The position numbers were made by a program, and so were the translations under genes. This document shows positions 1,923 to 48,431 of a stretch of 64,000 nt of DNA, one piece after another (the stretch's first letter is position 1; every line of letters starts with the position of its first letter). Source of the DNA: Candidatus Poribacteria bacterium (GTDB lineage Bacteria; Poribacteria; WGA-4E; WGA-3G); contig OZ242029.1 of the NCBI GenBank assembly GCA_965205015.1, forward strand, positions 704,001 through 768,000, read 5' to 3'. Under the pieces are notes generated by a model. It had not been told where the DNA came from. It worked only from the letters and a program-made list of their open reading frames with translations, and made no database searches.

Positions 1923-2077
1923 GGGCAGGCACGAGACCTGCCCCTACAGTAAAATTATGGGCAGGCACGAGACGGAGGGAAATCCGCAGAAATACGCAGA
2001 AATACCCTATCAAAAACACCCAAGCAATACGCAGAAATATCCTACCAAAAACACCCCAAGCAAAAACCCCCTACAGT
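1923..2077. repeat. GTAG-type REP palindrome, a partial second copy and a ~36-bp tandem duplication
   Basis: gggcaggcacgagacctgcccctac (reverse complement GTAGGGGCAGGTCTCGTGCCTGCCC); aatacgcagaaata..caaaaacaccc(c)aagca occurs twice. Confidence 0.7.
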
Positions 2078-12750: not shown

Positions 12751-12901
12751 CGGGCAGGCACAAGACCTGAGGATACGGGTAGGCACAAGACCTGAGGATA
12801 CGGGTAGGCATAAGACCTGAGGATACGGGTAGGCACAAGACCTAAGGATACGGGTAGGCACAAGACCTGAGGATACGGGCAGGCACAAGACCTGCCCCTA
12901 C
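12751..12901. repeat. Six tandem 25-bp units derived from a GTAG REP
   Basis: cggg(t/c)aggcacaagacctgaggata x5, then a final unit ending in the full REP gcccctac; no spacers. Confidence 0.9.
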
Positions 12902-33121: not shown

Positions 33122-33940
33122 TCATAGAGCACTTCGAAGCATTTCCACGCTCTGCGGAACGCCGACATGTGCATCGGCTTTCCCCTCGAATTCAATGGAT
33201 ACATATCCCTGAAATCCGGCATCCTTTAGAATGTTGCCTATTTTAGCATAATCTAAATCCAATGTATACCATTCACCACCCCCGTAATAGGTTTTGGCAT
33301 GGACGAGCACCGCCTCATCTGCAATCTGTTCCAGTTTTTGGTATGGATCTGAAAGAAAGTTCCCACAATCCATTGTAACTTTCAACCAGTCTGAGTCGAT
33401 AGCGGAAACAATACGATTGACGCCTTCAGGGGTGCAGGTGAGTCCCCAATGGTTTTCAAGTCCAAGGACAACCCCGTACTTCTCAGCGTCCGGGAGACAG
33501 TTTTCAATAGCTTCGATGACCCACGCAAACGCCTCGTCTTCTGTGTGTCCGGGGAGTGTCGGTTCTTGCCCTTCGGTTTTCATTAATTCATCGAAAGAGG
33601 GAACGGTGCCCCAGCGTCCTGAGTTGAGGCGAATTGCGGGGATACCGAGTTCGTGTGCCAATCGGATACAGTGGACGGTATGATTGATATTTTTTTGTCG
33701 TGTCGCCTCGTCTGCGGAAACGAAGCCTTGATGGATAGAGAGTGCGTAGAGATCGAGTCCATGTATGAAAGCGAGTCTTTTCAGTTTTTGGAGATACGGA
33801 TTGGCTTCCGATGCCATCTGTTGATGTAAGATTTCAACGCCGTCGAGTCCGAGACGTGCGGCTTCTTCAATGACGTGCTCAATTGGTACCCGTTCAGGTT
33901 TGAAATGCCAATAGGAATAAGTGGATACACCGAGTTTCAT
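33122..33940 (-). CDS. Sugar phosphate isomerase/epimerase (AP endonuclease 2 TIM barrel)
   Basis: GLENHWG, MDCGN, HAK, SIEFEG. Confidence 0.85.
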   Translation of the reverse strand: MKLGVSTYSYWHFKPERVPIEHVIEEAARLGLDGVEILHQQMASEANPYLQKLKRLAFIHGLDLYALSIHQGFVSADEATRQKNINHTVHCIRLAHELGIPAIRLNSGRWGTVPSFDELMKTEGQEPTLPGHTEDEAFAWVIEAIENCLPDAEKYGVVLGLENHWGLTCTPEGVNRIVSAIDSDWLKVTMDCGNFLSDPYQKLEQIADEAVLVHAKTYYGGGEWYTLDLDYAKIGNILKDAGFQGYVSIEFEGKADAHVGVPQSVEMLRSAL

Positions 33941-34077
33941 TTATCACCTCAATCAGAGTTTTTGTGCTCTTTATGATAGCATAACTCAGCATGCAATATC
34001 CACTTTTTTGATGGGTTATCAGCTGTCAGTTGCCAGAAGGCGAGGTTTCCTAACCTCGCCTTTTCGGTAGAACACGG

Positions 34078-35748
34078 CTACTGGTTCCTGGATTCCCCCG
34101 CCACTGCTCCTGCCACGAGTTGTTCTAAATCTGCCTCCCTGCCTCTGCGGGAGATCAATTTGTGGTTGGCTTCATAGGCGATCAACTTACCCTCCCTATC
34201 AATAAGCCACCGTGTCGGAATAGAGCGAACGTTATACTGTTGCGCGAGCGGACTCTGTCGTTCCAGACCGCTGTAAATTTGCCGCCAAGAGATGTCATTC
34301 TCCCTAAGGTAATTTCGCAGTTTCGTTTCATCGGTGTCAAGGCTGACCCCGATGATGTCAAATCCTTTGTCTTTATAGGTATCGTAAATCTTCTTCACCC
34401 TCAGCATTTCCCCGACGCAGAAACCGTTCCAGACTGCCCAGAAATCGAGTAAGACGACTTTTCCGCGGTATTGCTGGAGCGAAATCGGATTGCCATCATG
34501 ATCTGTTGTAGAAAAATCAGATGCCGGTTTTCCAAACTCGTCATAGGCCTCGGCGAGCCTACGGGATAGACCGTGCTTTCCAAGTTGCCTCGGCTTTTGT
34601 GCCGCAACTTTCATACCCATAGATGACGTTAGCAATTCTAAATACCGAGGTATCCGCTCACTGCGAGGTAACCGATAATCCGGATGAAACAAATTCTTGC
34701 TGGGCAGATGTTCAATCACTTCCAATTCAGGGGTTAGTGTTAGGATGTCCACAGAATCGGAGTAATGCTGTCGGAGTTTTGTTGCCAAGTCACCCGCTGC
34801 TGCGCCTTTGGCACCCGTCTGCAACTCGGGCAACTCCCTGTGTAGAACCCAGACGTTCACAAAATGCGTGTTGAGCGATTCAATAATTTTCGGTGAGGAG
34901 AGCGGACCCGCTCTCAAAATTTTGCCCGTCCCTCAGCAAGACTCATCGTCGAGGACCCCGAATAGGAGGACCGCATGGATCGGACGATTCGATGCTTTCG
35001 CGAGTTGGACCGCATCTTCAATAGGAGTCCACGCAATTCCAGCGAACTTGTAAAGCGCGTTCTGAAACTTTCTATCGGCTTCTTCCTCCGTGATAGCGGT
35101 TCCCCAATCAATCGACTCCGGTTGCGTCTCCGATAAACTGTGGAGTTCCATACGCGGAACCAACCCTATATCGTGGGTTCCAAAAGCACCCATATCTACA
35201 TTACTGTTGCGACTGGGAAGCGATAGCGTCCACTGACAAATCGTTCCACTGTTGCGATTGATGCGCAAATGTCCAGCAAATTGTGCAGGCCTCAAGTAGG
35301 CACCGATGGAGGCGTTCAGTATGAAGCGCGCATGGATTCGGAAGACAATATCAGCATATTCAGGTGATAGTGCCCGTAAGCAGGCTTTCGCGCCGTTCCC
35401 ACCATATCCGACATCCATTGTTGCGTTGGGGTGAAACTGGCGCAGAAACGGGAGAATCCGATCCGGATCCAGGTCCCAGACATCCCCTACGTTGACCGTT
35501 GACGGTGGAAGAAAAACTTGGAAATCCGATGTATTATAGTCCTTCAACGGCTGCGCAGGTCCGGGCTTGAATAACTCCAACCACTCTTCCCACGTCATGT
35601 CCACCGGTTCTTGCCACTGTGACTTAGTTCGATTAAACTTTTCTTCTGTTGCCCAATGCAAGTTATTCGATGTATTTTCGATCGGATCCCAATGCGCCTG
35701 CACTGGGATATTCGCTGAAGTTCTTAGCACGTTACGAAGGTCTATCAC
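34078..35748 (-). CDS. SELENON (selenoprotein N)-like protein fused to a TlpA-like redoxin; in-frame TGA at 34933-34935 (putative Sec, codon 272)
   Basis: The two ORF-track ORFs are in the same frame: LLFGVLDDESC-TGA-GTGKILRAGPLSSPKIIESLNTHFVNVW matches the SelN motif LWGALDDQSCUGSGRTLR...LNESF; upstream FRIHA...PAQF and NVDM also SelN-like; hairpin downstream of TGA. Confidence 0.85.
34898..34915 (-). promoter_or_regulatory. Putative bacterial SECIS hairpin
   Basis: GAGAGCG-GGTC-CGCTCTC; G-initiated loop 24 nt 3' of the UGA. Confidence 0.7.
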
Positions 35749-35798
35749 TATCTTTACTCCTATTGTTAGAACGATTTATGGTAGATTTTAGAATTTGT

Positions 35799-35868
35799 GG
35801 GCAGGCACGAGACCTGCCCCTACAATGTGATTGGTGTATTTGTGGGCAGGCACAAGACCTGCCCCTAC
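35799..35868. repeat. Two direct GTAG REP copies
   Basis: gggcaggcac(g/a)agacctgcccctac twice; same family as 1923, 12876 and 48407. Confidence 0.85.
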
Positions 35869-35909
35869 AAGATATAGACCTATTTCCATAATTCGCCATA
35901 GTAAAGGTC

Positions 35910-37217
35910 CTATTGATTCTCGGGTCTGTTTTTGAGGGCTTCCACGACGAGATGTTCTAAATCTTCGCCCCTTGCTTTATGCGAAATTAATGTGCCATCC
36001 CTGTCAATAAGCCACGGTGCCGGAATACCACGGATATCGTATTGTCGGGTAAGGGAATCTTCACCCCTTGCGTTATCGAAAATTTGTCGCCATTGGATGT
36101 CATTCTCTTTAATATAGTCCCGCAGTTTCGGTTCCTCATTATCAAGACTGACCCCGATGACGTCAAATCCCTGATCCTTATAGGTGTCGTAGACTCTTTT
36201 GAGATTTGGCATTTCCGCGATGCACGGACCACACCACACCGCCCAAAAATCGAGTAAGACAACCTTTCCACGATAGTCTTGAAGCGAAATTGGATTCCCA
36301 TCAAGGTCTGTCGCAGAAAAATCAGGCACCAATTTTCCCCACAATTCATATTTAGGATCAGCCTTGCGTTCATAAACTTCGGCGAGTTCAATATTGCCTA
36401 ATTTCTCATAAATATAGGCAAGCCTCGCATGGATAGGTTGTGCATCCGGAAGCTGCTGCTCAGCCGCCTTAAAAATCTCAAGCATATCATCATATAATTC
36501 CGCTTCCGCAAGTACCTCAAATACTGTGCGATACCCATCAATGTTTAGGATCATGCCTGACTTGAGACGCTCAATCAGAGCATCGGCGGCTTGTTCATCC
36601 CCGACTCGGTGGATGTAGAGTCCAAGAAGTTCTGCGTAGAGCTCGAAGAAACGCCGATCGTCCGGGTATCGCGCAAGTGTGTCTTCAAAAGCAGTAATCG
36701 CGGCTTCGGGGCTACCGTATATCTCTTCGGGTGTGTACACACCGGAGGACCAAAATATTTTGAAAGCGAAACTCAAGTTCAGACACTCAAACGCTTGATT
36801 CCTATGATGCCGACAACGGACAAGGGGTATAACATCCCCATACACGAAACGTTCCTCACTTTTCATTGCTCGATACCGCGGATGAAATTGGTAGCCGTAA
36901 CTTACGGGCATCTTTGGATCTGCATTGCTGGAAAAGATTGGCTTGCCACCCAACTCATCTGCTGGACACAGCAAAAGGTTTGCATCGGGCAAATATTTCG
37001 GATGAAGTTCTGAGAGCCATTCCGGGAAATCGCCGTGTTCTTTTTTATAGGCTTGAATCGCCTCGCCAATCGCAACCAAATTTTGCGTGCAGATTTCAAT
37101 GTTTTTCTCATGCCGTTCCATAATTAGATCCTCGCTGGGCTTTTCTGTAGGTGTGTCTGCGTTTGCAGAAGTGATTAGTAAACCTATCACCATTGCCACA
37201 GTCAAGATTGCTTTCAT
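35910..37217 (-). CDS. Secreted protein: pilin/DUF1559-like Cys-rich domain + TPR + TlpA-family redoxin
   Basis: Signal peptide; ICTQNLVAIGEAIQAY..HGDFP; PDFSATDLDG..LLDFWAVWCGPC. Confidence 0.85.
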   Translation of the reverse strand: MKAILTVAMVIGLLITSANADTPTEKPSEDLIMERHEKNIEICTQNLVAIGEAIQAYKKEHGDFPEWLSELHPKYLPDANLLLCPADELGGKPIFSSNADPKMPVSYGYQFHPRYRAMKSEERFVYGDVIPLVRCRHHRNQAFECLNLSFAFKIFWSSGVYTPEEIYGSPEAAITAFEDTLARYPDDRRFFELYAELLGLYIHRVGDEQAADALIERLKSGMILNIDGYRTVFEVLAEAELYDDMLEIFKAAEQQLPDAQPIHARLAYIYEKLGNIELAEVYERKADPKYELWGKLVPDFSATDLDGNPISLQDYRGKVVLLDFWAVWCGPCIAEMPNLKRVYDTYKDQGFDVIGVSLDNEEPKLRDYIKENDIQWRQIFDNARGEDSLTRQYDIRGIPAPWLIDRDGTLISHKARGEDLEHLVVEALKNRPENQ

Positions 37218-37262
37218 TTCAATATTCTCCTTTTCAGATTTCTCACTGAATTGCCAGATTGG

Positions 37263-39596
37263 CTATTGATTCTCGGTTTTGTCCTTGAGGGCTTCCACCA
37301 CGAGTTGTTCTAACTTCACCCCTCTGGCTTTACGTGAGATTAATGTGCCGTCCCTGGCAATGAGCCACGGTGCTGGGATGGAACGAATATGATGCCGTTG
37401 CGCAAGTGGACTTCTCCATTTTTGTCCGCTGAAGATTTGCCGCCACCGGATGTTATTCTTTTTTAGGTAGTTGCGCAGCCTCACCTCATCAGTGTCAAGA
37501 CTGACACCGATGATATCGAAACCCTGATCCTTATAGGTATTGTAAACCCTTTTCACATTCGGCATTTCGGTTATACAGGGACCACACCAGACTGCCCAGA
37601 AATCGAGTAGCACCACTTTTCCGCGATATTGTTGAAGCGAGATCGGTCTGCCATCAAGGTCAGTTTCTGAAAAATCAGGCACAATTTTTCCGACAAGTTC
37701 CGACATCGGATCCGCCTTTTTCCGATATTTCGCGGCGAGCTCGGAATTACCGAGCACTTCATGAATTCGCGCAAGTTCTTCCAGAACGCGGGAGTCTTTC
37801 GGATACCGTTTCTCAAGATTCTCAAAGACTTTAAGCGCTTCTTCATATTGATTCGCCATTTCAAGCATCCTGCTGAGCATAAAATGTGCCTGAAGGTCGT
37901 CAGGTTTTATAACCGATCTGAAACGGTTAATAAGGTGCTCGGCAGCTTTTTCGCGTCCGACTTCAATGTAGAGACGGGCAAGTGTCATATAGAAATGAAA
38001 GAACTGTTCATTATCGGCTTGTCGCTGCAGTCCTTTTTCCAACGCTGCAATGGTTTCCTCAACGGTTTCATACATCTCTTCTGGTCTATATACACCGGAT
38101 GACCAATATATCTTAAAAGCGAAACTCAAGTTTAGACACTCAAACGCTTGATTCTTATGATGCCGGCAACGGACAAGCGGTAAAACGTCCCCATACATAA
38201 GGCGTTCCTCAGTTTTTGCTACTCGATACGCAGGGTGAAATTGGTAGCCGTAACTCACAGGCATCTTCGGGTCTCTATTAGAAGCAAAAACTGTCCTGCC
38301 GTTCAGTCCATCTGCAGGACAAAGCAAGAGATTCGCATTTGGTAAGTAGTGGGGATAAAGGTCTGAGAGCCATTGCGGAAAATCACCGTGTTCCTTCCGG
38401 TAGGCTTGGAGTGCCTTGCCAATGTCGCGCAGATGCTGTTTGCAGATTTCAACGTTCTCGTCCATCTGTTCCGCCTTCGTCGTTCGGTCAGAAGGCTCCT
38501 CGCTTGATGTTGATTGGGATTTGGAGGCTGCCTGAATTTGTTGGGACAGTGCGTCCTTTGGATCAACCGCCTGTGCCAAACGCATCGCGCCCATCGGAAC
38601 AGCAAAGCAGATGAGGACGAGCAGTCCTATTCCCATGGCAACTTTTGTCACCGGACGCCGATTCAGATTTTCGGCGAGAACGGTTCGGAGTCGTCTTTCA
38701 ATCCTTGAGGAACGCGCGATTGCCACAGCCGCAAGCGAAGTTGCCTTGGTAATTTTCACATTGCGTGTAATATCAAGCAGATGTTGCGCGTAGTCGGTGG
38801 ATCGACACCCAGCATTTAGGACATGGTCATCGCAGGCTTGCTCTGCTTCTATGCGCATCCAACGCGCCAGCAACCATACAAGTGGATTGAACCAATAGAT
38901 CGCACACGTTACCTGTGCAACCATCTGCATCGTCCAATCCCACCGTTTGATATGTGCCAATTCGTGTAGGAGCACAGTACGGAGCCGCTCGGTTTGCCAA
39001 TGATTTGCATCAACTGGTAGCAAAATCACAGGACGTAAGAAACCCCACACCATCGGGACTGTAATCCTATCGCTGAGCCGGATATTGACGCGTCGATTTG
39101 AATTGGATTGTAACTGTTCGACAGCACGGCTAAAATTGCGACTCCGAGCAGAGATATGCCAAATGGCACCGATGCCGACAATCAAACGGATAAACAGAAA
39201 CAGTCCAGCACCTGTCCAGACGATTGCTATCCAGTCTGTCCAATGTCGTGTCGTAAAGGGGGCACTCTGATCGGGCACAAGGTCGGGTTGCGGCGGTGTC
39301 GATGCGATTGGTATGGACGACACCGACTTTGTTGACAATTGGATCGGTGCACTTGAAACGGGTACTTCAGGTAGGATACCGAGTTCCCACTTCGGAAGCA
39401 CAAGAGAAAGCAGCGGGATAGTGAGGCATCCGACGATTGCCATACTCCAGGCGAAACCGCGCACCGCCGCCGACTTGCGACGGAGGCAGAACGCGAATAC
39501 ACCCGCAACGGCGAAAATCACGAAACTTTTCATCGTGGTGTCAACGAGAAATTTCAGCAATGGGTCTGCGTAGAGCGTCTCAATAAATCGCATCAT
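37263..39596 (-). CDS. BlaR1/M56 peptidase fused to Cys-rich domain, TPR and TlpA redoxin
   Basis: PMVWG..RPVILLP, HELAH, WFNPLVW, EQACDD; C-terminal FWAVWCGPC. Confidence 0.9.
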   Translation of the reverse strand: MMRFIETLYADPLLKFLVDTTMKSFVIFAVAGVFAFCLRRKSAAVRGFAWSMAIVGCLTIPLLSLVLPKWELGILPEVPVSSAPIQLSTKSVSSIPIASTPPQPDLVPDQSAPFTTRHWTDWIAIVWTGAGLFLFIRLIVGIGAIWHISARSRNFSRAVEQLQSNSNRRVNIRLSDRITVPMVWGFLRPVILLPVDANHWQTERLRTVLLHELAHIKRWDWTMQMVAQVTCAIYWFNPLVWLLARWMRIEAEQACDDHVLNAGCRSTDYAQHLLDITRNVKITKATSLAAVAIARSSRIERRLRTVLAENLNRRPVTKVAMGIGLLVLICFAVPMGAMRLAQAVDPKDALSQQIQAASKSQSTSSEEPSDRTTKAEQMDENVEICKQHLRDIGKALQAYRKEHGDFPQWLSDLYPHYLPNANLLLCPADGLNGRTVFASNRDPKMPVSYGYQFHPAYRVAKTEERLMYGDVLPLVRCRHHKNQAFECLNLSFAFKIYWSSGVYRPEEMYETVEETIAALEKGLQRQADNEQFFHFYMTLARLYIEVGREKAAEHLINRFRSVIKPDDLQAHFMLSRMLEMANQYEEALKVFENLEKRYPKDSRVLEELARIHEVLGNSELAAKYRKKADPMSELVGKIVPDFSETDLDGRPISLQQYRGKVVLLDFWAVWCGPCITEMPNVKRVYNTYKDQGFDIIGVSLDTDEVRLRNYLKKNNIRWRQIFSGQKWRSPLAQRHHIRSIPAPWLIARDGTLISRKARGVKLEQLVVEALKDKTENQ

Positions 39597-39982
39597 GATG
39601 AAGTGTCTCCCTTTTTCGCTTGCTCAATGAGTTGGCTTAAACGGTCAAGTTCCTCATCCGAGAGATCCACCTCGGAGACCAGTGCAATGACCGTTTTCTC
39701 AATAGACTTATCAAAAAACGTCTGAAAAATCTGTTTGAGTGCGGAACGTCCCGCCAGATGCCGTGGTTGCGTCGGGCGGTAGATGTAGCGTCTGCCATCT
39801 TTTTCATGGGTGAGATACCCCTTCTCCTCCAAGATTCCCAACAGTGCCCGAACTGTAGAGTAAGTTGGCGGATCCGGGAGGTCCTCAAGGACATCGACAA
39901 CAGAAGCGCAACCGCGCTGATAGACGATATCCATGATTTGTCGTTCCCTCCGACTCAGTTTGAGGGTACCGTAGTCTTCCAC
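39593..39982 (-). CDS. BlaI/MecI/CopY family transcriptional repressor
   Basis: LSRRERQIMDIVY, PTYSTVRALLGILEEKG, RRYIY; overlaps blaR-like start. Confidence 0.92.
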   Translation of the reverse strand: MEDYGTLKLSRRERQIMDIVYQRGCASVVDVLEDLPDPPTYSTVRALLGILEEKGYLTHEKDGRRYIYRPTQPRHLAGRSALKQIFQTFFDKSIEKTVIALVSEVDLSDEELDRLSQLIEQAKKGDTSS

Positions 39983-40012
39983 TTTTTCACCTCTTTTGGT
40001 AATATGAATTCA

Positions 40013-41401
40013 TCAGATTTCAATACGCACAAACGCGAGATACGCACCCGCCAACACAACGACAACAAACAATGTTAACAGCAGTAACTCTGTTGTAACG
40101 GTATTGAAATCCTTACCGATGTTGAGTGTGTCTTCAAATTTGGGAACCGCTTCTGGGCTGACAGGCTTTTTGGACATCCCCTCGCGAACGCCCATGATAT
40201 GGGGGCTCTCCGGATCGCCTCTCTCCATATCAACGACGAATTCTCGGTATTCACGGGCGTAACGCTGAACATTCTCAGTAAATTGCTGGTGCCGATCCAG
40301 ACCTGTTCCAGCGAACGCCTCAAGCAGATGCTGGAGGAGTGCCGCGGGTGAGACGCTGGTTATGGCACGCGCACGTTGAACTTGGGTAATCTTAAAGGTT
40401 AAGTACTCCCCAGCCAAGCGTTCGCCGCTTACTGCTATTTTGGTGTGCCACTCACCTCTTATCCTTAGCATTTTTTCGTCATCTGACTGATACCAAGCGT
40501 GTCGCCAAGTTTTCTTAAGTCTCCTGTAACTTTGGCCGTATCGGTCTGTATATTCATGAGATGCCATAGATGATGAAAAGCCGCTCGCAAGTGCGGCGAG
40601 TGTGCTCGGCATAAAAGCGACAAAAGTGACCCACGTCAACAGAAGTATCACAAGACTCACGGCACTCCGTTGCACACGCGCTGAGACTAACAGCCCTAAC
40701 GCCAGAAACAGACACGTGTACAAAAGTGCGATAAAGAGAATGATGCCTAAGCGTCCCCACGCTTCAGTATTCAGGTGAACCTCACTTGCGGAGGAAATCA
40801 TTAGGAGGTTCACTAACATAGCCAGCAGAAAAGGAATAGTCGTACTGATCAACGCCCCCAGAAACTTACCGATCAGCACAGTATGTCGTGGGATAGCATT
40901 TGCCAACATCAATCGGAGCGTGCCGTGCTCGCGTTCGCTGGAGATAGCATCAAACGTAAATAAGAGCGCAATGAGACTCAAGATATAACCGATGATAAAG
41001 GTCCAATCGATTTGGGAAACGTCGGGTCCAACATTTTTCATATTTATGTTGGCATCTGGATAGCTCAGTTTCCAGAAAATGTCGCTACCATAAGGGGTGT
41101 CAACCCTATCGGGTAAAAGGGTCTCTCCACCCGCTGCGCAGAAATGGAGCGGCGACGGTTTTTTGTAAAGCACTCCGGGTCCCTCGTGTGCCAATGTATA
41201 GAGACTGTCGTCGGCGCGAGACGTTAATTGGTTCATGGATTCAGTGACAGCGTCGTGATACTTCTGGACCCGTTTCGGATGCTCTCGGATATGTCTAACG
41301 GCGTTGGTTACCATCAGTGCCAGCAGCAACACGGTCGTCAACGCAAATCGGAGGCTATTCAAATTATTATAGAGTTCACGTTTCGTAATATGCCACATCA
41401 T
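40013..41401 (-). CDS. ABC-2 type permease (type B)
   Basis: FDAISSEREHGTLRLML, GKFLG, multiple TM segments. Confidence 0.85.
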   Translation of the reverse strand: MMWHITKRELYNNLNSLRFALTTVLLLALMVTNAVRHIREHPKRVQKYHDAVTESMNQLTSRADDSLYTLAHEGPGVLYKKPSPLHFCAAGGETLLPDRVDTPYGSDIFWKLSYPDANINMKNVGPDVSQIDWTFIIGYILSLIALLFTFDAISSEREHGTLRLMLANAIPRHTVLIGKFLGALISTTIPFLLAMLVNLLMISSASEVHLNTEAWGRLGIILFIALLYTCLFLALGLLVSARVQRSAVSLVILLLTWVTFVAFMPSTLAALASGFSSSMASHEYTDRYGQSYRRLKKTWRHAWYQSDDEKMLRIRGEWHTKIAVSGERLAGEYLTFKITQVQRARAITSVSPAALLQHLLEAFAGTGLDRHQQFTENVQRYAREYREFVVDMERGDPESPHIMGVREGMSKKPVSPEAVPKFEDTLNIGKDFNTVTTELLLLTLFVVVVLAGAYLAFVRIEI

Positions 41402-41403
41402 AT

Positions 41404-42915
41404 CTACACTTCACTTTTGATAAAAACCAGAAAGATCACTATAAAGAGAAGGACATTCATCATAAGCAGCAGGAACAAGTCTGGCACTGTTCGTTTTGCA
41501 TTGATGCTGATATCGCTTCTCTGAAATGAGAACTGCGGGAGCGTGTCCCAATCGACGGCACCTTGATCGGAAGAAAACCACTGTCGGGACGCAAATATCT
41601 TTTCATCATAAAAGTAATTGACGATCGCTTGTCGGTAGCGTTGCGCCGCTGTGAAAAAATCCTGGGTGCCATTGAGGTCGGTGCCTGCCCACGCTTCGGT
41701 TGCGGCATCATACAAACCCGCCGGTGAGAACTTCAACAACATTCGTCCTCTGTTTGCCGGTTGGACGTAGATCTTCTCGAATGCTGGCTTTCGGATAAAC
41801 GATGTTCGCTCTGCGGTGTTGACAGTCAACATTCCGAGGTAGTGGTGATAATTCTGGGCGTGTGGCACGTAAGGTTCCGATTTCTCGTCAATCGTTTCAA
41901 GGTCGCCCGCAGCATGGTGGATGTAGTAATATAATAATCTTGATGGCTGGTCTCTTATTATCCCATAAAAATCAAATCCCAAATCTTCTCCTGGGAGAGC
42001 ATCGTTGAGGAGAAACTGCTTCCGCTTTCTCTCAAGTTCCTCCCACATCTGTTTAACCTGATGGTAAGCGGCGGCTTCCGTATCCGTTTGTGGGGCAGTA
42101 TCAACTGCAGTGAGAATCATATTCGGGTAGACGAGTACTAAGAACCCCCAAACGAACATCGAGAGGATAAGCGCAGTACTGGTTCGGCGTGTGATTGCAG
42201 AAATGAGCATGCCAGTGAGGTAGAACAGCGATAGATAGACGACGGACGTAAGAACAATCCCACCGATACGCAGAAAATCATCGGTATTCAGGGAGATCAT
42301 AGCGGATGTCGTCAGCAAAATGAGCATCAGGAGCAGACTTATCAACAACGGCACGAGCAAACAGACCATCGCACCGATATATTTGGCGAACAGGATGGAC
42401 CCACGTCCCACGGGATGGGATAGCACTAAGCGGAGGGTGCCGTGTTCGTATTCTCCAGCGATAGCATCGTAGGCGAAAATAAGTGCCAGTAGGCTAAGAA
42501 CCCCTTGAAAAATAAGGACAATATCAATTGAAGTGAGGATGTTGAAAAATGGATTGTTCGCCTCGTACTTGTCGGCATCCCAAATTGTCGGCGTAAAAGT
42601 ATGGGAAATCGCAATTTTGTTCCCCAGTCGCTTATCTAAACCTGTGTTGAAAATGCTCAACGGGTTCGGCGGACGGTCAACGATCATCTTTCCCCACACG
42701 CCTAACATTCCATCTGAATAGGTTTTGTTGATCTCTCGAAGTTCCTGCCGGTGGGTTTTGACGGCGGTATTATAATCCGCCAACCGCAGTTCATAGTCTT
42801 TGATGAGCACAACGGTATTCGCGACCACGAGCAGCAGCATAATCGCAACAGCTGCCGCAAATCGGAACGTCATGAGATTGTCGAGGAGTTCCCGCCGAAT
42901 GAGTGTTAGAAACAT
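41404..42915 (-). CDS. ABC-2 type permease (type A)
   Basis: RPPNPLSIFN.GLD, YDAIAGEYEHGTLRL, multiple TM segments. Confidence 0.85.
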   Translation of the reverse strand: MFLTLIRRELLDNLMTFRFAAAVAIMLLLVVANTVVLIKDYELRLADYNTAVKTHRQELREINKTYSDGMLGVWGKMIVDRPPNPLSIFNTGLDKRLGNKIAISHTFTPTIWDADKYEANNPFFNILTSIDIVLIFQGVLSLLALIFAYDAIAGEYEHGTLRLVLSHPVGRGSILFAKYIGAMVCLLVPLLISLLLMLILLTTSAMISLNTDDFLRIGGIVLTSVVYLSLFYLTGMLISAITRRTSTALILSMFVWGFLVLVYPNMILTAVDTAPQTDTEAAAYHQVKQMWEELERKRKQFLLNDALPGEDLGFDFYGIIRDQPSRLLYYYIHHAAGDLETIDEKSEPYVPHAQNYHHYLGMLTVNTAERTSFIRKPAFEKIYVQPANRGRMLLKFSPAGLYDAATEAWAGTDLNGTQDFFTAAQRYRQAIVNYFYDEKIFASRQWFSSDQGAVDWDTLPQFSFQRSDISINAKRTVPDLFLLLMMNVLLFIVIFLVFIKSEV

Positions 42916-43015
42916 CGCAGTATCACCAAATCCCGTTGTTTATCGTCTGATATGTGTCTGTCTCCCTTTAAGTGTTCACAGGAAACGTGTTGAACGGGCG
43001 TTAAATATAGATAAT

Positions 43016-43076
43016 ATGCTAATATTTTAGCATTTAGAAAAAATGATGTCAAGAAAAAATGCTAAAAATTTAGCAT
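43016..43076 (-). promoter_or_regulatory. Sigma70 promoter with two 18-bp palindromic operators
   Basis: TTGACA (43052-43047), 17-bp spacer, TAAAAT (43029-43024); ATGCTAA-N4-TTAGCAT at 43016-43033 and 43059-43076. Confidence 0.8.
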
Positions 43077-43204
43077 AAATTGATGAAGCACACGATTGAC
43101 CCATCTATAAGTGCCACGGTGAAACTTTCTGCTGATGCATAGGGACCAATACATTCTCTGTCCGTCTCTTGAATTCTCACCTATTGAAACGGCAAAAAGA
43201 CTGT

Positions 43205-44635
43205 CTAAACATCAACACGAAGGAACGAAAGAAACGCACTTGCGAACAATACTGCAAAAAATAGGAGTAATAACAGGATGTCTGTAGTTGCGGCGTTATA
43301 GGCACCGCTGAAACTGATATGATCTTCAAATTTCGGGATTGATTCAAAGCGCACGGGCTTTTGTGAGGTACCCTCTTCGGGACCGATCGCGTGGGGACTC
43401 TCTGGATCCGCACGATCGGTTTCAACGAGAAACGACATGAATGCATCGGCGTATCGGCGCACTTGCTTCAAGAATTGAACGTGCCGTGTGAAACCGGTCC
43501 CGGCAACGGATTCTATCGCATACTGTACACTTGATGCTGGAGATATACGGGTGATGGATCTCGCGAGTCGAATCTGAGCAATTTGAGCGTCTAAGTGCTC
43601 CTCGTTCAATCTCCCGTTGTCTCTTGCATCCTCGGTGAGGTATTTCGACCACAACAGTGTTTCCTCCGTTGCTGGAATCTCTCGCGAGGGTACTTTGCTC
43701 CCAAGTTCGTCGTACTCCTGATAAAAATTATTGGCAAACTGTTGCCGACGGGCGGCGAGTTCGTTACGGGTCATTGTCGGCTGTAAGCCGCTGGTAAGCG
43801 CACCGGTTGTAGAGGGCAGCAGGACGACCCAAACAACCCAAATTAGTAAGAGAATCATGAGACTCGATGACGAATTACTTACGCGAGAGGATATGAGCAG
43901 CCCCAGTCCAAGGAAGATTGACACGTAAACAAAAGCGATGAAGACAATGACGCCCAATCGTCCGCACTCGCTTGGTCCGAGTGGAATACTTCCCGACGTG
44001 TAAAGTAGAAAAAGGTTAATGAATGCGGCAATTAAAAAAGGGATACTGATAGTTATCAATGCTGCAAGAAACTTGCTTACCAATACAGTGCCGCGTGAAA
44101 CGCTATTGGAGAGGGTCAAACGCAGGGTACCTCGTTCGCGGTCCGAAGATATCGCGTCGAAAGTGAATAGGATAGCAATCAAACTCAGCACGATAGAGAC
44201 GATAGCATTCCAATCAACATTTGTATAATCGGGCATAATATTCCATAGGTTTGGATTGGATTGCGGGTATTCCATTCGCCATATCGCACTGATTGAAAAA
44301 CGGCTTGAGCTCATGAGCAGACCTCTGCCAACGCCATCAGCGGATTCGGGTATAAATGTTTCACCACCGTTCGCACAAAAGGAGAGTGGAGACGGTTTTT
44401 TGTAGAGAGTACCGGGTCCTCCCATGAGCAGATAATACAGACTGTCTGCAGTGGATCTCATCTTATCTAAAGACGCTGAGACCTTTTTTTGATATTCTGT
44501 CGATTGCGCCGTGTATTCGCCAAGATACCCGATTGCATTGACGAGCATCAGAGCAATAAGCAATACCGTTGTAAAGGCAAATCGTAGGCTATTCAGATGG
44601 TCATAAAGTTCACGTTTTACAAGGTGCCAAATCAT
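43205..44635 (-). CDS. ABC-2 type permease (type B paralog)
   Basis: MIWHLVKRELYDHLNSLRF, FDAISSDRERGTLRL; paralog of 40013-41401. Confidence 0.85.
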   Translation of the reverse strand: MIWHLVKRELYDHLNSLRFAFTTVLLIALMLVNAIGYLGEYTAQSTEYQKKVSASLDKMRSTADSLYYLLMGGPGTLYKKPSPLSFCANGGETFIPESADGVGRGLLMSSSRFSISAIWRMEYPQSNPNLWNIMPDYTNVDWNAIVSIVLSLIAILFTFDAISSDRERGTLRLTLSNSVSRGTVLVSKFLAALITISIPFLIAAFINLFLLYTSGSIPLGPSECGRLGVIVFIAFVYVSIFLGLGLLISSRVSNSSSSLMILLLIWVVWVVLLPSTTGALTSGLQPTMTRNELAARRQQFANNFYQEYDELGSKVPSREIPATEETLLWSKYLTEDARDNGRLNEEHLDAQIAQIRLARSITRISPASSVQYAIESVAGTGFTRHVQFLKQVRRYADAFMSFLVETDRADPESPHAIGPEEGTSQKPVRFESIPKFEDHISFSGAYNAATTDILLLLLFFAVLFASAFLSFLRVDV

Positions 44636-44721
44636 TTTATTAGTTGTCGGTCGTCGACTATCGGTTGTCAGCAAGAATGGCTGTCGGTTTCTTTGCCGAC
44701 TGCTGATTGCTGACTGCTAAT

Positions 44722-46233
44722 TTACACTTCCTGCCGCACGAATATTAAAAATGCCATCATAAACAGTACAACGTTGATGAGCAGTAAGCAGGCAATATCG
44801 CCGCTGGCGTGCTGCATACCATTCCATATATCGCTCCGACGATAAGAAAACCGTGGTAAATCGCTCCAATCGACTTCTCCTTGATCAGCGGCAAACCATT
44901 TCCGAGAAGAAAAAGCCTTCTTATCATAGAAATAATCAATAATCGTTTGCCGATACCGCTGGACTGTCGTGATAAAATCCTCAATACCGTGGAAATCCGT
45001 TCCTGCCCACGCCTCGGTTGCGAAATCATACATCGCCGCCGGTGAGAAACGCATCAGGTTTTTTGCCACATTTGCTTTGCGAACGTAGATCTGATTTAAA
45101 GCTGCCTGTCGAACCTGCCATGTCCTTTCTGCTGCGCGAATGCGTCGCGGCTCTGCGAATTGAAAGTAAGCTTTGACATGAGGCATCAGGGGTTCTGCCT
45201 CTGGCTTGATACGAATACTGCGAATTTCTGCCTTAGAATACCTGAGCGTCATCGGATCTGAAATATGAGGCGCCCCCCAACTTCCTGAATAAAGTATATT
45301 GGTGTTCAAGTCTTCCCCTTCAATTTCATCGTTCCTTAAGAAATCCATCCGTTCTCTTTCAAAACTTTCCCAGATCTGCTCAATTTCACCATAAGAGGAC
45401 TCCAATTGAGAAGGGGTCTGCCAAAACCGATTGACTGTAAATACGGTGAGGCTTGGATAGATGAGGACCAGGGTGCTCCATATCACCATTGACACCATCA
45501 GGGCAGTCGCGGTTCGGCGTGTGATTGCCGAGATTAACAATCCTATGAGATAAAAAGCGGAGAGATAGATGATTGAGGTAAGTAAAATACCGCCAATCCG
45601 AAGCCAATCATCTCCCGTCAGCAAAATCGACCCAGATACAGAAAATAAGATGAGTGCGAGTAGCAAACTCATGACGACAGGAAGCGTCAGACACGCCAGC
45701 GCACTGATGTACTTTGCCAGGAGAACAACGGAGTGACTGACAGAGTTTGTCAGCGTTAAGCGGAGCGTGCCTGCTTCCCGTTCCCCAGCGATCGCATCGT
45801 GGGCGAAAAGCAGTGCCAGTAGACTGAGAATTACCTGAAAAACCAAAACCAAATCGACGCTCGAAAACAGGTTGAGGAAAGGATTATCCGCACTGTGTGA
45901 TCGGGTATCCCACAGGGTTGGGACAAAGGTATGCCCGATAGTGATAGAGTTGCCGAGCCGTCGATCTAAACCCGCATTGAAAATGCTCAGCGGGTTAGGG
46001 GGTCGGTCTACGCGGATTGCGCCTTCCACCTCCGAATAGGTACTTGTTCTTCTTAAAAACCTCTGATGGTGTTCCTTCACCGCGGTATCATAACTCGTCA
46101 GACGGCGTTCGTAATCGGCAATCAGGACAACGGTATTCGCAACAACCAACGACAGTGTGACGATCATCGCAACGAGGAACCGAAAGGTCATAAGGTTGGC
46201 GAGCAATTCTCGCCGAACGAGAATCAGAAACAT
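44722..46233 (-). CDS. ABC-2 type permease (type A paralog)
   Basis: RPPNPLSIFNAGLD, DAIAGEREAGTLRL; paralog of 41404-42915. Confidence 0.85.
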   Translation of the reverse strand: MFLILVRRELLANLMTFRFLVAMIVTLSLVVANTVVLIADYERRLTSYDTAVKEHHQRFLRRTSTYSEVEGAIRVDRPPNPLSIFNAGLDRRLGNSITIGHTFVPTLWDTRSHSADNPFLNLFSSVDLVLVFQVILSLLALLFAHDAIAGEREAGTLRLTLTNSVSHSVVLLAKYISALACLTLPVVMSLLLALILFSVSGSILLTGDDWLRIGGILLTSIIYLSAFYLIGLLISAITRRTATALMVSMVIWSTLVLIYPSLTVFTVNRFWQTPSQLESSYGEIEQIWESFERERMDFLRNDEIEGEDLNTNILYSGSWGAPHISDPMTLRYSKAEIRSIRIKPEAEPLMPHVKAYFQFAEPRRIRAAERTWQVRQAALNQIYVRKANVAKNLMRFSPAAMYDFATEAWAGTDFHGIEDFITTVQRYRQTIIDYFYDKKAFSSRKWFAADQGEVDWSDLPRFSYRRSDIWNGMQHASGDIACLLLINVVLFMMAFLIFVRQEV

Positions 46234-48323: not shown

Positions 48324-48406
48324 GCGGCTTTCTCCTAATAAACAGATTGGGGTGTGTTGACATTCGCCAAAAAGTATACGCAAATGCTAAACTTTGTGAA
48401 ATTATA

Positions 48407-48431
48407 GTAGGGGTAGGTCTTGTGCCTACCC
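48407..48431. repeat. GTAG REP palindrome
   Basis: gtaggggtaggtcttgtgcctaccc. Confidence 0.8.

What the first reader, a model, noticed from the sequence alone, without database searches (positions are those of the whole stretch)
34078..35748. Bacterial selenoprotein N homolog fused to a redoxin, split in the ORF track by UGA
Seen: in-frame DDESC-TGA-GTGKILR with a strong G-loop hairpin 24 nt downstream. Known: animal SELENON has DDQSCUGSGRTLR and is mainly an animal ER protein. The fused TlpA domain has lost its first Cys (WNGFC versus WCGPC in both neighbours), suggesting the CU motif supplies the redox centre. Inference: a eukaryote-like selenoenzyme using a bacterial SECIS, possibly exchanged between host and symbiont. 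I recall SelN-like sequences being noted in Poribacteria, so novelty needs checking; the operon context may be new.
Basis: partly seen in the sequence, partly recalled or inferred. Interest (0 to 1): 0.85.

Follow-up and report, generated by a model that had tools for sequence, protein, structure and literature searches.

The report
Bacterial selenoprotein N homolog fused to redoxin
A sponge-symbiont-type bacterium (Poribacteria) encodes a selenocysteine-containing relative of animal selenoprotein N, the muscle-disease protein, joined to a one-cysteine redoxin domain, and it belongs to a large, mostly bacterial family that could serve as a simple model for the animal protein.

Summary
One minus-strand gene (35748..34078) is interrupted by a single in-frame TGA (34935..34933) inside ...DDESC-U-GTGK..., followed by a 7-bp hairpin with a GGUC loop (34915..34898). 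The TGA and the continuing frame are kept in 18 of 18 related Poribacteria loci. The hairpin is the longest invariant stretch around the TGA and is constrained at synonymous sites. Cys-for-Sec homologs exist. selA, selB, selD and tRNA-Sec are present in 5 of 5 related genomes; the window's own genome is not held. Residues 63-348, spanning the Sec, align with proteins that sources name selenoprotein N (178 bits, 33% identity). Residues 406-527 are a TlpA-like redoxin whose CxxC is [N/H/S]xxC in all 111 related database fragments. The family is large: 565 clusters at 50% identity, 1-15 copies in 45 of 61 genomes of the phylum, almost all with the TGA. The protein lacks the animal transmembrane and EF-hand parts. 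A recent host-symbiont exchange is not supported (about 36% identity), but the position of the animal clade is unresolved (AU p 0.49). The redox mechanism is inferred. I found no paper on bacterial SELENON; one metagenome source already names a member "selenoprotein N".

The parts
34078..35748 (-). Whole gene: a 556-codon SELENON-like/redoxin fusion selenoprotein. GTG start at 35748, TAG stop at 34080..34078.
   Evidence: collinear orthologs in 18 loci
35757..35761 (-). AGGAG ribosome-binding site, 8 nt upstream of the GTG start.
   Evidence: read
34933..34935 (-). In-frame TGA, codon 272, read as selenocysteine (motif S-C-U-G).
   Evidence: Same column in 18 of 18 loci and in 19 of 20 paralog regions fetched. 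Cys at this column in P0003, P0244, P0255, P0257, P0276, P0294, P0295.
34898..34915 (-). Candidate bacterial SECIS hairpin: 7-bp stem GAGAGCG/CGCUCUC with loop GGUC (34908..34905).
35125..35721 (-). N-terminal beta-rich, barrel-like domain (about residues 10-208). From about residue 63 it is shared with animal SELENON.
   Evidence: AF2 model of ortholog P0122, pLDDT 94.9. No convincing solved relative, best Z 5.3. BLASTP span.
34624..35088 (-). Thioredoxin-fold domain (about residues 221-375). Cys271-Sec272 sits just before the first helix, which is the usual CxxC position.
   Evidence: AF2 model of homolog P0002. Fold matches to DsbH-like, AGR3 and UAS domains, Z 11-13.6. Profile span.
34168..34533 (-). 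TlpA/ResA-like redoxin domain (residues 406-527).
   Evidence: Pfam AhpC-TSA 2.5e-19 and Redoxin 3.2e-19; PDB ResA 2.4e-17
34417..34428 (-). N441-G-F-C444, in place of the CxxC active site. Only the second Cys is kept.
35910..37217 (-). Upstream gene: signal peptide + TPR + TlpA-like redoxin with WCGPC.
37263..39596 (-). BlaR1-type M56 peptidase with hydrophobic segments. A TPR + WCGPC redoxin domain stands where the sensor domain would be.
39593..39982 (-). BlaI-type (Penicillinase_R) repressor. Its end overlaps the start of the BlaR1-like gene by 4 nt.
35799..35864 (.). Two copies of a 21-nt palindromic repeat in the 161-nt gap upstream of the gene.
   Evidence: 5 copies in the window, 0 expected

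Best explanation
This is one gene for a 556-residue selenoprotein of the selenoprotein N (SELENON) family in a Poribacteria-type bacterium. SHOWN: a TGA at codon 272 and the continuing frame are conserved. A hairpin 17-34 nt downstream is conserved at the RNA level. Cys-for-Sec homologs exist. Related genomes carry selA, selB, selD and tRNA-Sec. Residues 63-348 align with named animal SELENON across the Sec. INFERRED for decoding: SelB carrying Sec-tRNA(Sec) binds the GGUC-loop hairpin and inserts Sec at the UGA, giving the full-length protein. Architecture (from models of homologs, not of this protein): a beta-barrel-like N-domain; a thioredoxin-fold domain with the adjacent Cys271-Sec272 pair at the position where thioredoxins carry CxxC; a linker; and a TlpA-like redoxin that keeps only its second Cys (C444). 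INFERRED chemistry: the Sec272 selenolate attacks an oxidised thiol or a peroxide. Cys271 then resolves the product to a vicinal selenenylsulfide, as in the GCUG end of thioredoxin reductase. The one-Cys redoxin domain serves either as a relay thiol or as a client-binding module. The protein has no signal peptide and so is probably cytoplasmic. It is the last gene of a conserved cluster that also encodes a BlaI-type repressor, a BlaR1-type protease whose outer domain is a CxxC redoxin, and a secreted TPR-redoxin. This suggests a regulon that responds to envelope or thiol redox stress (inferred from context only).
For: Gene and TGA. Conservation: TGA at the same column and an open frame beyond it in 18 of 18 Poribacteria loci of 75-86% identity. 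Gene calls: 124 of 126 database calls that contain the motif stop right after the Cys, as do 116 of the 130 representatives (among the best 150) that reach it. TGA is an ordinary stop for 7 other long ORFs in the window. Hairpin: nearly invariant in 19 orthologs. It holds the longest invariant run, 17 nt. It shows synonymous constraint, 6 of 7 against 9 of 40, p = 0.0026. In 33 distinct ortholog and paralog sequences, 218 of 231 stem cells pair in register, against 86-186 when shifted. Stem pair 7 changes G-C to A-U and stem pair 4 changes A-U to G-U. Sec/Cys pairs: CC in P0003, P0244, P0255, P0257, P0276, P0294, P0295. Machinery: selB, selA, selD (itself with one TGA) and tRNA-Sec beside selB are over cut-off in 5 of 5 related genomes. 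SELENON homology: the bacterial profile hits wombat, jellyfish and sea-anemone proteins at 8e-50 to 5e-43. Relatives of the wombat protein are named Selenoprotein N. BLASTP of the read-through protein against those gives 178 bits and 33% identity over 347 columns, query 63-348. The aligned motif is shown. A 2026 review passage gives SCUG as the SELENON redox motif and likens it to GCUG of thioredoxin reductase. Fold: pLDDT 90.9, with the Cys just before helix 274-281 of a Trx fold; Z 11-13.6 to DsbH-like, AGR3 and UAS domains. The TGA lies inside that domain, so two separate halves would each be incomplete. Redoxin; [N/H/S]xxC in 111 of 111 fragments. C123, C271, U272 and C444 are conserved. 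Cluster.
Against: No whole genome is held for the window. The window itself has no tRNA, no Rfam match and no sel gene that I saw, so the Sec machinery is shown only in relatives. The hairpin's folding energy is not unusual (z = -1.02). No Rfam SECIS model matches it. Its stem is nearly invariant among orthologs, and the changes among paralogs go together with amino-acid changes, so covariation support is modest. One shifted register also pairs well (186 of 231). The structures are of homologs (P0002 and P0122), not of the window protein. No model shows C444 near U272. Database SELENON gene models lack the U itself, so the column match on the animal side rests on the flanking alignment plus the review. 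No experiment, RNA data or peptide data bear on it. The redox mechanism, the cytoplasmic location and the regulon are all inference.
Confidence: 0.85

Rival explanations
1. The TGA is a true stop and two separate proteins are made: a 271-residue N-terminal protein, and a 279-residue redoxin protein started at the TTG of ...KILRAG...
For: Gene callers annotate it this way: 111 database fragments start at M/L-RAGPLSS and 124 calls end at ...SC. TGA is used as a stop elsewhere in the window.
Against: The break falls inside a thioredoxin-fold domain, right at its active-site loop. Full-length Cys homologs read straight through. Frame, TGA and hairpin are kept in 18 of 18 loci and in 19 of 20 paralog regions. 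Homology to SELENON continues across the codon. I saw no ribosome-binding site before the TTG (read).
Confidence: 0.04
2. It is a pseudogene or an assembly error, and the TGA is an accident.
For: A single window cannot exclude an error.
Against: The same TGA occurs in 18 independent assemblies. It also occurs in all but one of the 150 listed matches across the phylum. The sequence is conserved on both sides of it.
Confidence: 0.01
3. The gene reached Poribacteria from the sponge host, or reached animals from a Poribacteria-like symbiont. In other words, Poribacterial and animal SELENON are specific sister groups.
For: Poribacteria are dominant sponge symbionts (abstract of PMC3909097, seen in the listing). 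The window protein is the bacterial row most identical to the 10 animal rows: 36.5%, rank 1 of 139. Poribacteria average 33.8% against 29.5% for other bacteria. The AU test does not reject a tree that holds the 10 animals and 12 Poribacteria rows together (lnL difference 1.0, p 0.49).
Against: Both free trees place the animals on the other side of a starred branch from all Poribacteria rows (SH-aLRT 95; 98), next to a different 24-row bacterial group, and that placement is weak (85-86). Poribacteria rows are also the most similar to the other bacterial groups, so they may simply be slowly evolving or favoured by a profile built largely from them. Identity of about 36% excludes a recent event. 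The animal clade includes cnidarians and vertebrates, so any transfer would predate them. No sponge, choanoflagellate or algal sequence was in the set.
Confidence: 0.2
4. The SELENON-like part is a redox sensor or client-binding module rather than an enzyme, and the attached one-Cys redoxin is only a docking domain.
For: Relatives are fused behind an ECF sigma factor and a membrane segment (P0003, P0255; 576-residue forms cut at the TGA). These look like one-piece sigma/sensor proteins. The gene sits in a BlaI/BlaR1-type signalling cluster. According to a review abstract, animal SELENON acts as a calcium sensor.
Against: The Cys-Sec pair is conserved at the catalytic position of a thioredoxin fold. 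The use of costly Sec in nearly all members points to catalysis. Sensor and enzyme roles do not exclude each other.
Confidence: 0.15

Closest known systems
Animal selenoprotein N (SELENON / SEPN1)
   Same: The core is homologous from about residue 63 to at least residue 348: 33% identity and 178 bits against a sturgeon protein named 'selenoprotein N-like'. The redox motif falls in the same alignment columns...G-x-L-D-D-[EQ]-S-C-[Sec]-G-[ST]-G-[KR]-x-L-R... (SCUG per the review passage). The redox centre lies in a thioredoxin/UAS-like fold.
   Different: There is no N-terminal transmembrane segment and no EF-hand. It has an extra C-terminal one-Cys TlpA-like domain. Sec is specified by a hairpin inside the coding region, in the bacterial way, rather than by a 3'-UTR SECIS. 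It has no signal peptide, so it is probably cytoplasmic rather than in an ER-like compartment. Poribacteria carry it as a multi-copy family.
C-terminal GCUG redox centre of mammalian thioredoxin reductase
   Same: Adjacent Cys-Sec followed by Gly. The review likens SCUG to GCUG. The proposed vicinal selenenylsulfide chemistry is taken from this enzyme (established knowledge, not tested here).
   Different: Here the pair sits at the CxxC position of a thioredoxin fold, in the middle of the protein, not on a flexible C-terminal tail of a flavoenzyme. No FAD/NADPH domain was detected.
TlpA/ResA thiol-disulfide oxidoreductases
   Same: Residues 406-527 match Redoxin and AhpC-TSA above Pfam's cut-offs, and ResA structures at 2e-17.
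   Different: The active site is NGFC instead of WCxxC, and [N/H/S]xxC in 111 of 111 relatives. There is no membrane anchor or signal peptide. NCBIfam ResA and TlpA models score far below their cut-offs.
DsbH-like / DsbD-gamma-like / AGR / UAS thioredoxin-fold domains
   Same: These are the best structural matches of the Sec-bearing domain in the homolog model (Z 11-13.6, 117-142 residues aligned).
   Different: Sequence identity is 9-20%. None carries a Cys-Sec pair. This is a fold match only.
BlaI/BlaR1 (MecI/MecR1) signal systems
   Same: A Penicillinase_R repressor and an M56 peptidase membrane protein are encoded together, directly upstream. The arrangement recurs in 12 of 18 related loci.
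   Different: Pfam reported no penicillin-binding sensor domain. TPR repeats and a CxxC redoxin domain take its place. What signal is sensed is unknown.

Membership tests
Selenoprotein N (SELENON) family | Significant sequence similarity to proteins named selenoprotein N over the conserved core, on both sides of the Sec | tested here: met
   BLASTP gives 178 bits and 33% identity over 347 columns, query 63-348. The profile finds animal proteins at 8e-50 to 5e-43. Their relatives are named Selenoprotein N.
Selenoprotein N (SELENON) family | Sec in an S-C-U-G motif at the homologous position | tested here: met
   The window reads S-C-U-G. The flanks align column by column with animal rows. The animal U itself is missing from the database gene models, so SCUG on that side is taken from the review passage.
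Selenoprotein N (SELENON) family | Thioredoxin/UAS-like fold around the redox motif | tested here: met
   Tested on a model of homolog P0002, not on the window protein: Z 11.0 to the UAS domains of UBXD7 and FAF1, and 12-13.6 to DsbH-like and AGR3 domains.
Selenoprotein N (SELENON) family | N-terminal transmembrane anchor and EF-hand calcium sensor (animal form) | tested here: not met
   There is no EF-hand in Pfam. The most hydrophobic 19-residue stretch scores 1.4 and lies in the redoxin domain.
Selenoprotein N (SELENON) family | ER location and action on SERCA | not testable with these tools
   This is a property of the animal cell.
Bacterial SelB-dependent selenoprotein | In-frame UGA conserved among orthologs, with coding sequence conserved downstream | tested here: met
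   18 of 18 loci and 19 of 20 paralog regions.
Bacterial SelB-dependent selenoprotein | Stem-loop shortly after the UGA with G in the apical loop (criteria as I recall them from bSECISearch, not from a call) | tested here: met
   7-bp stem, loop GGUC, loop 24 nt after the codon. Synonymous constraint p = 0.0026. bSECISearch itself was not available.
Bacterial SelB-dependent selenoprotein | Homologs with Cys at the Sec column | tested here: met
   P0003, P0244, P0255, P0257, P0276, P0294, P0295.
Bacterial SelB-dependent selenoprotein | selA, selB, selC and selD in the same genome | tested here: inconclusive
   The window's genome is not held, and the window holds none of these. All four are present in 5 of 5 related genomes that carry the ortholog.
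Bacterial SelB-dependent selenoprotein | Selenium found in the protein | not testable with these tools
   Needs 75Se labelling or mass spectrometry.
TlpA/ResA thiol-disulfide oxidoreductase | Redoxin/AhpC-TSA domain | tested here: met
   Pfam scores 69.6-69.9 bits against cut-offs of 26-26.6.
TlpA/ResA thiol-disulfide oxidoreductase | WCxxC active site | tested here: not met
   WNGFC here. None of 111 related fragments has CxxC.
BlaI/BlaR1 system (gene context) | Penicillinase_R repressor plus M56 peptidase membrane protein | tested here: met
   3.2e-30 and 6.5e-35.
BlaI/BlaR1 system (gene context) | Penicillin-binding (transpeptidase-type) sensor domain | tested here: not met
   The Pfam hits after the M56 domain are TPR and redoxin families only.

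The most novel reading that the evidence does not exclude
SELENON is not an animal invention. It is one branch of an old, mainly bacterial family of Cys-Sec oxidoreductases or sensors. In Poribacteria this family has expanded to as many as 15 selenoprotein genes per genome. It has been wired into signalling devices: fusions with ECF sigma factors, clusters with BlaI/BlaR1-type regulators, and fusions with one-Cys redoxins. On this reading the animal protein was acquired from a bacterium close to the Poribacteria lineage, and the bacterial proteins would offer a soluble, tractable model for finding the still unknown substrate chemistry of the human disease protein.
Probability: 0.3. Interest if true: 0.85.

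Novelty: new variant of a known kind. Interest (0 to 1): 0.7.

Why it matters
SELENON is mutated in human SEPN1-related myopathies. A 2026 review describes its catalytic site only as an SCUG motif with oxidoreductase activity, and that review never uses the words "bacteria" or "prokaryot". No solved structure matched the SELENON-like part by sequence.

A soluble bacterial homolog has the same Cys-Sec motif and models with high confidence. It also has natural Cys variants. Together these give a practical route to structure and enzymology.

For microbiology, the family would be among the largest selenoprotein families of one phylum. Gene callers systematically split it at the TGA. As a result, the selenium dependence of these sponge symbionts and their redox regulons is probably underestimated.

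For evolution, it raises again the question of where an "animal" selenoprotein came from.

Tried and rejected
- **Window's own genome:** not held, so selA, selB, selD and tRNA-Sec could not be sought in it.
- **RNA searches:** ARAGORN and Rfam found nothing in the window. A permissive Rfam scan of the hairpin region gave only a chance snoRNA hit at E 4.6.
- **Family libraries:** Pfam, NCBIfam and PDB sequence searches found nothing for residues 1-400.
- **N-terminal domain:** VIA-align gave a best Z of 5.3, to small beta-barrels, nitrobindin-like and LolA-like proteins. That is below the tool's noise level, so no fold is assigned.
- **Promoter and terminator scan of 33900-40300:** counts were near the shuffled background, so it says nothing about operon boundaries.
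- **Sequencing runs:** no RNA holder was listed.
- **Phylogeny:** the AU test was inconclusive (p 0.49). Only 10 animal rows were used, with no sponge, protist or algal sequence, and most bacterial rows are cut at the TGA, so only 215 pre-Sec columns were used.
- **Taxon names:** almost none were available for non-Poribacteria members, apart from one Gemmataceae record.
- **selD hairpins:** the hairpin after the selD TGA in related genomes is not of the same sequence. RNAfold did not pick the short G-loop stem that I could read by eye, so I do not count it as support.
- **Papers with no relevant hit:** 'SELENON' + 'bacterial homolog' gave 0. 'selenoprotein' + 'Poribacteria' gave 1 paper, on hydrogenases. 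Six phrases such as 'bacterial SelenoN' or 'SelenoN-like' gave 2 irrelevant papers. 'SELENON' + 'Candidatus' gave 2 irrelevant papers.
- **Reviews and method papers checked by term search, none mentioning a bacterial SELENON:** PMC13326102, PMC13188914, PMC9312934, PMC2398784, PMC11227280, PMC12013277.
- **Not available:** PMC12013261 is not held. Supplementary tables of these papers, which list selenoprotein families, are closed and could hold the family.
- **Recollection only:** I have an unverified memory that a bacterial (Poribacteria) SelenoN was used for structural work. Nothing in the calls confirms it.
Full report
**1. The observation**

On the minus strand, 35748..34078 is one frame of 556 codons broken by a single TGA at 34935..34933. 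Read as Sec, the text is ...AVLLFGVLDDESC-U-GTGKILRAGPLSS.... The ORF listing shows the two halves as separate ORFs.

The start is a GTG with AGGAG 8 nt upstream. An in-frame TAA lies 10 codons further up, so no longer N-terminus is possible (read).

Seventeen nt after the TGA comes GAGAGCG-GGUC-CGCUCUC. Its folding energy is not exceptional: z = -1.02, and 27 of 200 shuffles fold as well. The hairpin has to be judged by conservation.

**2. Is the TGA decoded?**

- **Orthologs.** A scan of one genome per species found 18 loci, all titled Candidatus or uncultured Poribacteria, with 75-86% protein identity. All 18 have TGA at the same column, and the frame continues for 280-480 codons where the locus allows.
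- **Nucleotide constraint.** In the 300 nt around the TGA, the longest invariant run across the 19 sequences is 17 nt and lies on the hairpin. Six of 7 amino-acid-invariant degenerate codons there use a single codon in all 19, against 9 of 40 elsewhere (Fisher p = 0.0026).
- **Paralogs.** In 19 of 20 paralog regions fetched from related genomes, a C-U pair is followed by a hairpin at the same offset. Over 33 distinct sequences, 218 of 231 stem cells pair in register, against 86-186 when the 3' arm is slid. Stem pair 7 switches G-C to A-U and stem pair 4 switches A-U to G-U. These changes accompany amino-acid changes, and one slid register also pairs well (186), so I count this as moderate support.
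- **Cys homologs.** Homologs with Cys in place of Sec exist: P0003, P0244, P0255, P0257, P0276, P0294 and P0295.
- **Truncated gene calls.** Gene callers stop at the codon in 124 of 126 motif-bearing database proteins. They also stop there in 116 of the 130 representatives (among the best 150) that reach it.
- **No code change.** TGA ends 7 other long ORFs in the window, so there is no general reassignment.
- **Sec machinery.** The window's genome is not held, and the window has no tRNA or Rfam match. In 5 of 5 related genomes that carry the ortholog, selB, selA, selD (itself with one in-frame TGA) and tRNA-Sec next to selB are all above cut-off.

**3. Is it selenoprotein N?**

Pfam, NCBIfam and PDB sequence searches see only the C-terminal redoxin.

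A profile of database homologs (A3) searched against 1.84 billion representatives gave 565 clusters at E <= 1e-3 and 221 at E <= 1e-30. Among them were a wombat protein (8e-50), a jellyfish protein (1.5e-48) and a Nematostella protein (4.7e-43). Relatives of the wombat protein are named Selenoprotein N by UniRef and NCBI, for example the donkey protein at 62% identity.

BLASTP of the read-through window protein against this named set gave 123 hit lines. The best was 178 bits and 33% identity over 347 columns, query 63-348. That span covers both sides of residue 272.

In the profile alignment the motif columns match: the window has ...GVLDDESC[U]GTGKILRAGPLSSPKII..., and the animals have ...GALDDQSC..GSGRTLRE.VLESSP.L.... 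The animal gene models omit the U. A 2026 review passage states that the Sec lies in an SCUG motif reminiscent of GCUG in thioredoxin reductase.

One metagenome member (P0241) is already named "selenoprotein N" by JGI/IMG.

**4. Anatomy**

An AlphaFold model of the full-length natural homolog P0002 (42-44% identical to the window protein; pLDDT 90.9) has two parts. The first is a beta-rich domain at about residues 10-206. The second is a thioredoxin fold at 222-404, with the Cys just before helix 274-281, which is the CxxC position.

The best solved matches for the second domain are DsbH-like, AGR3 and UAS domains: Z 11-13.6 with 117-142 residues aligned. The TGA lies inside this domain, which argues against two independent proteins.

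A model of the pre-TGA ortholog P0122 (pLDDT 94.9) shows a barrel-like beta domain. Its best Z is only 5.3, so it has no assignable relative.

Residues 406-527 are a TlpA/ResA-like redoxin. Its active site is WNGFC. The window and the 17 loci that reach this domain have W-[N/H]-[G/S]-F-C. The 111 related post-TGA database fragments have NxxC (86), HxxC (21) or SxxC (4), and none has CxxC.

C123, C271 and U272 are kept in 19 of 19 orthologs, and C444 in all 18 that reach the redoxin domain. No hydrophobic segment or signal peptide is present, and Pfam finds no EF-hand.

**5. Context**

Upstream on the same strand, in order, are:
- a BlaI-type repressor at 39982..39593;
- a BlaR1-type M56 peptidase with hydrophobic segments, whose C-terminal part is TPR plus a WCGPC redoxin, at 39596..37263;
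- a TPR-WCGPC redoxin with a signal peptide at 37217..35910.

Among the 18 loci, a BlaI homolog is present in 12, the BlaR1-like gene in 12, a TPR-redoxin homolog in 17, and the downstream sugar-isomerase-like gene in 15.

The 161-nt gap before the gene holds two copies of a palindromic repeat that occurs 5 times in the window. The promoter and terminator scan was uninformative.

**6. Size of the family**

Five related genomes hold 7-13 matches each. Of the 50 matches, 48 have an in-frame TGA, and several stand in tandem arrays.

In a sample of 61 genomes of the phylum, 45 have 1-15 matches. All but one of the 150 listed matches carry a TGA, and 105 more matches were not listed. The window has one copy.

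Other architectures include ECF sigma factor + membrane segment + SELENON-like domain, and a caspase-domain fusion. One cluster includes a Gemmataceae record.

**7. Origin**

In a quick IQ-TREE tree (131 rows, 215 pre-Sec columns) the 10 animals form one clade (100). The window sits in a 12-row Poribacteria clade (96), inside a 68-row bacterial group (95). The animals sit weakly (86) beside a different 24-row bacterial group.

A FastTree tree with 19 more Poribacteria paralogs puts all 31 Poribacteria rows and the animals on opposite sides of a 98 branch.

Against this, the AU test does not reject holding the animals and the 12 Poribacteria rows together (lnL difference 1.0, p 0.49). The window protein is also the bacterial row most identical to the animals: 36.5%, rank 1 of 139. 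Poribacteria rows are likewise the most similar to the other bacterial groups, so this may reflect slow evolution or profile bias.

My reading is that the placement of the animal clade is unresolved, and that a recent sponge-symbiont exchange is not supported. No sponge sequence was available to me.

**8. Mechanism**

All chemical steps here are inferred. SelB-dependent insertion of Sec at codon 272 would give the full-length protein. The Sec272 selenolate reacts with an oxidised client or a peroxide. Cys271 forms a vicinal selenenylsulfide, by analogy with GCUG of thioredoxin reductase. C444 of the one-Cys redoxin acts as a relay, or the domain docks clients. The BlaI/BlaR1-redoxin genes suggest control by a thiol or redox signal sensed outside the cytoplasm.

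**9. Novelty**

I found no paper in the held library that describes a bacterial SELENON (term searches). Supplements are closed, and PMC12013261 is not held.

One automatic annotation already uses the name. I also have an unverified memory of a bacterial SelenoN being used for structural work.

I therefore rate this as a new variant of a known kind. It belongs to the SELENON family, but it is bacterial, it has an in-ORF SECIS, it lacks the transmembrane and EF-hand parts, it is fused to a one-Cys redoxin, and the family is strongly expanded in one phylum.

Noticed in passing
window 1923-1943, 12877-12897, 35799-35819, 35844-35864, 48411-48431: A 21-nt palindromic repeat (GGGCAGG...CCTGCCC type) occurs 5 times in the window, against 0 expected. 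The two copies I placed lie in the gap between genes just upstream of the selenoprotein gene. It looks like a REP-like element.
   Followed up: partly
P0003, P0004, P0005, P0217, P0218, P0236, P0237, P0239, P0255 (database proteins): Proteins in which an ECF sigma-70 factor and a hydrophobic segment are followed by the SELENON-like domain. Most are cut at the TGA at 576 residues. P0003 and P0255 are Cys forms that read on. They look like one-piece sigma/sensor proteins with a Sec-bearing outer domain.
   Followed up: partly
G003:C2:5656165-5667815; G001:C1:1239968-1246772 and 5401891-5409355; G002:C1:132042-138379: Tandem arrays of three to five SELENON-like selenoprotein genes in related Poribacteria genomes. 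One sampled genome of the phylum has up to 15 matches.
   Followed up: partly
G001:C1:1330118-1331041 and the equivalents in G002-G005; L019, L020: In the related genomes selD itself has one in-frame TGA (motif ...KCAG-U-ASK...), and tRNA-Sec lies within about 200 nt of selB.
   Followed up: partly
P0359 and cluster members P0388-P0392: A protein of about 775 residues with a caspase (Peptidase_C14) domain, a coiled-coil-like insert and the SELENON-like domain. It is found on a 6-Mb contig.
   Followed up: no
P0275 (526 aa) and P0002 (405 aa): These are members in which the Sec column holds Trp (C-W-G) or Gly (C-G-V). They may be forms that have lost the Cys-Sec pair.
   Followed up: no
window 37263-39596: A BlaR1-type M56 peptidase whose usual sensor domain is replaced by TPR repeats and a WCGPC redoxin. 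This suggests a thiol or redox-sensing variant of the BlaR1/BlaI switch.
   Followed up: partly
window 40013-48383: A run of five large minus-strand ORFs lies just upstream of the BlaI-like gene. The three I scanned (40013-41401, 41404-42915, 43205-44674) are ABC-2-type transporter permease-like proteins with a DUF3526 domain.
   Followed up: no
window 34040-34060: A GC-rich inverted repeat (GCGAGGTT...AACCTCGC) lies 18 nt beyond the stop codon. It may end the transcript. The terminator scan did not report it for the minus strand.
   Followed up: no
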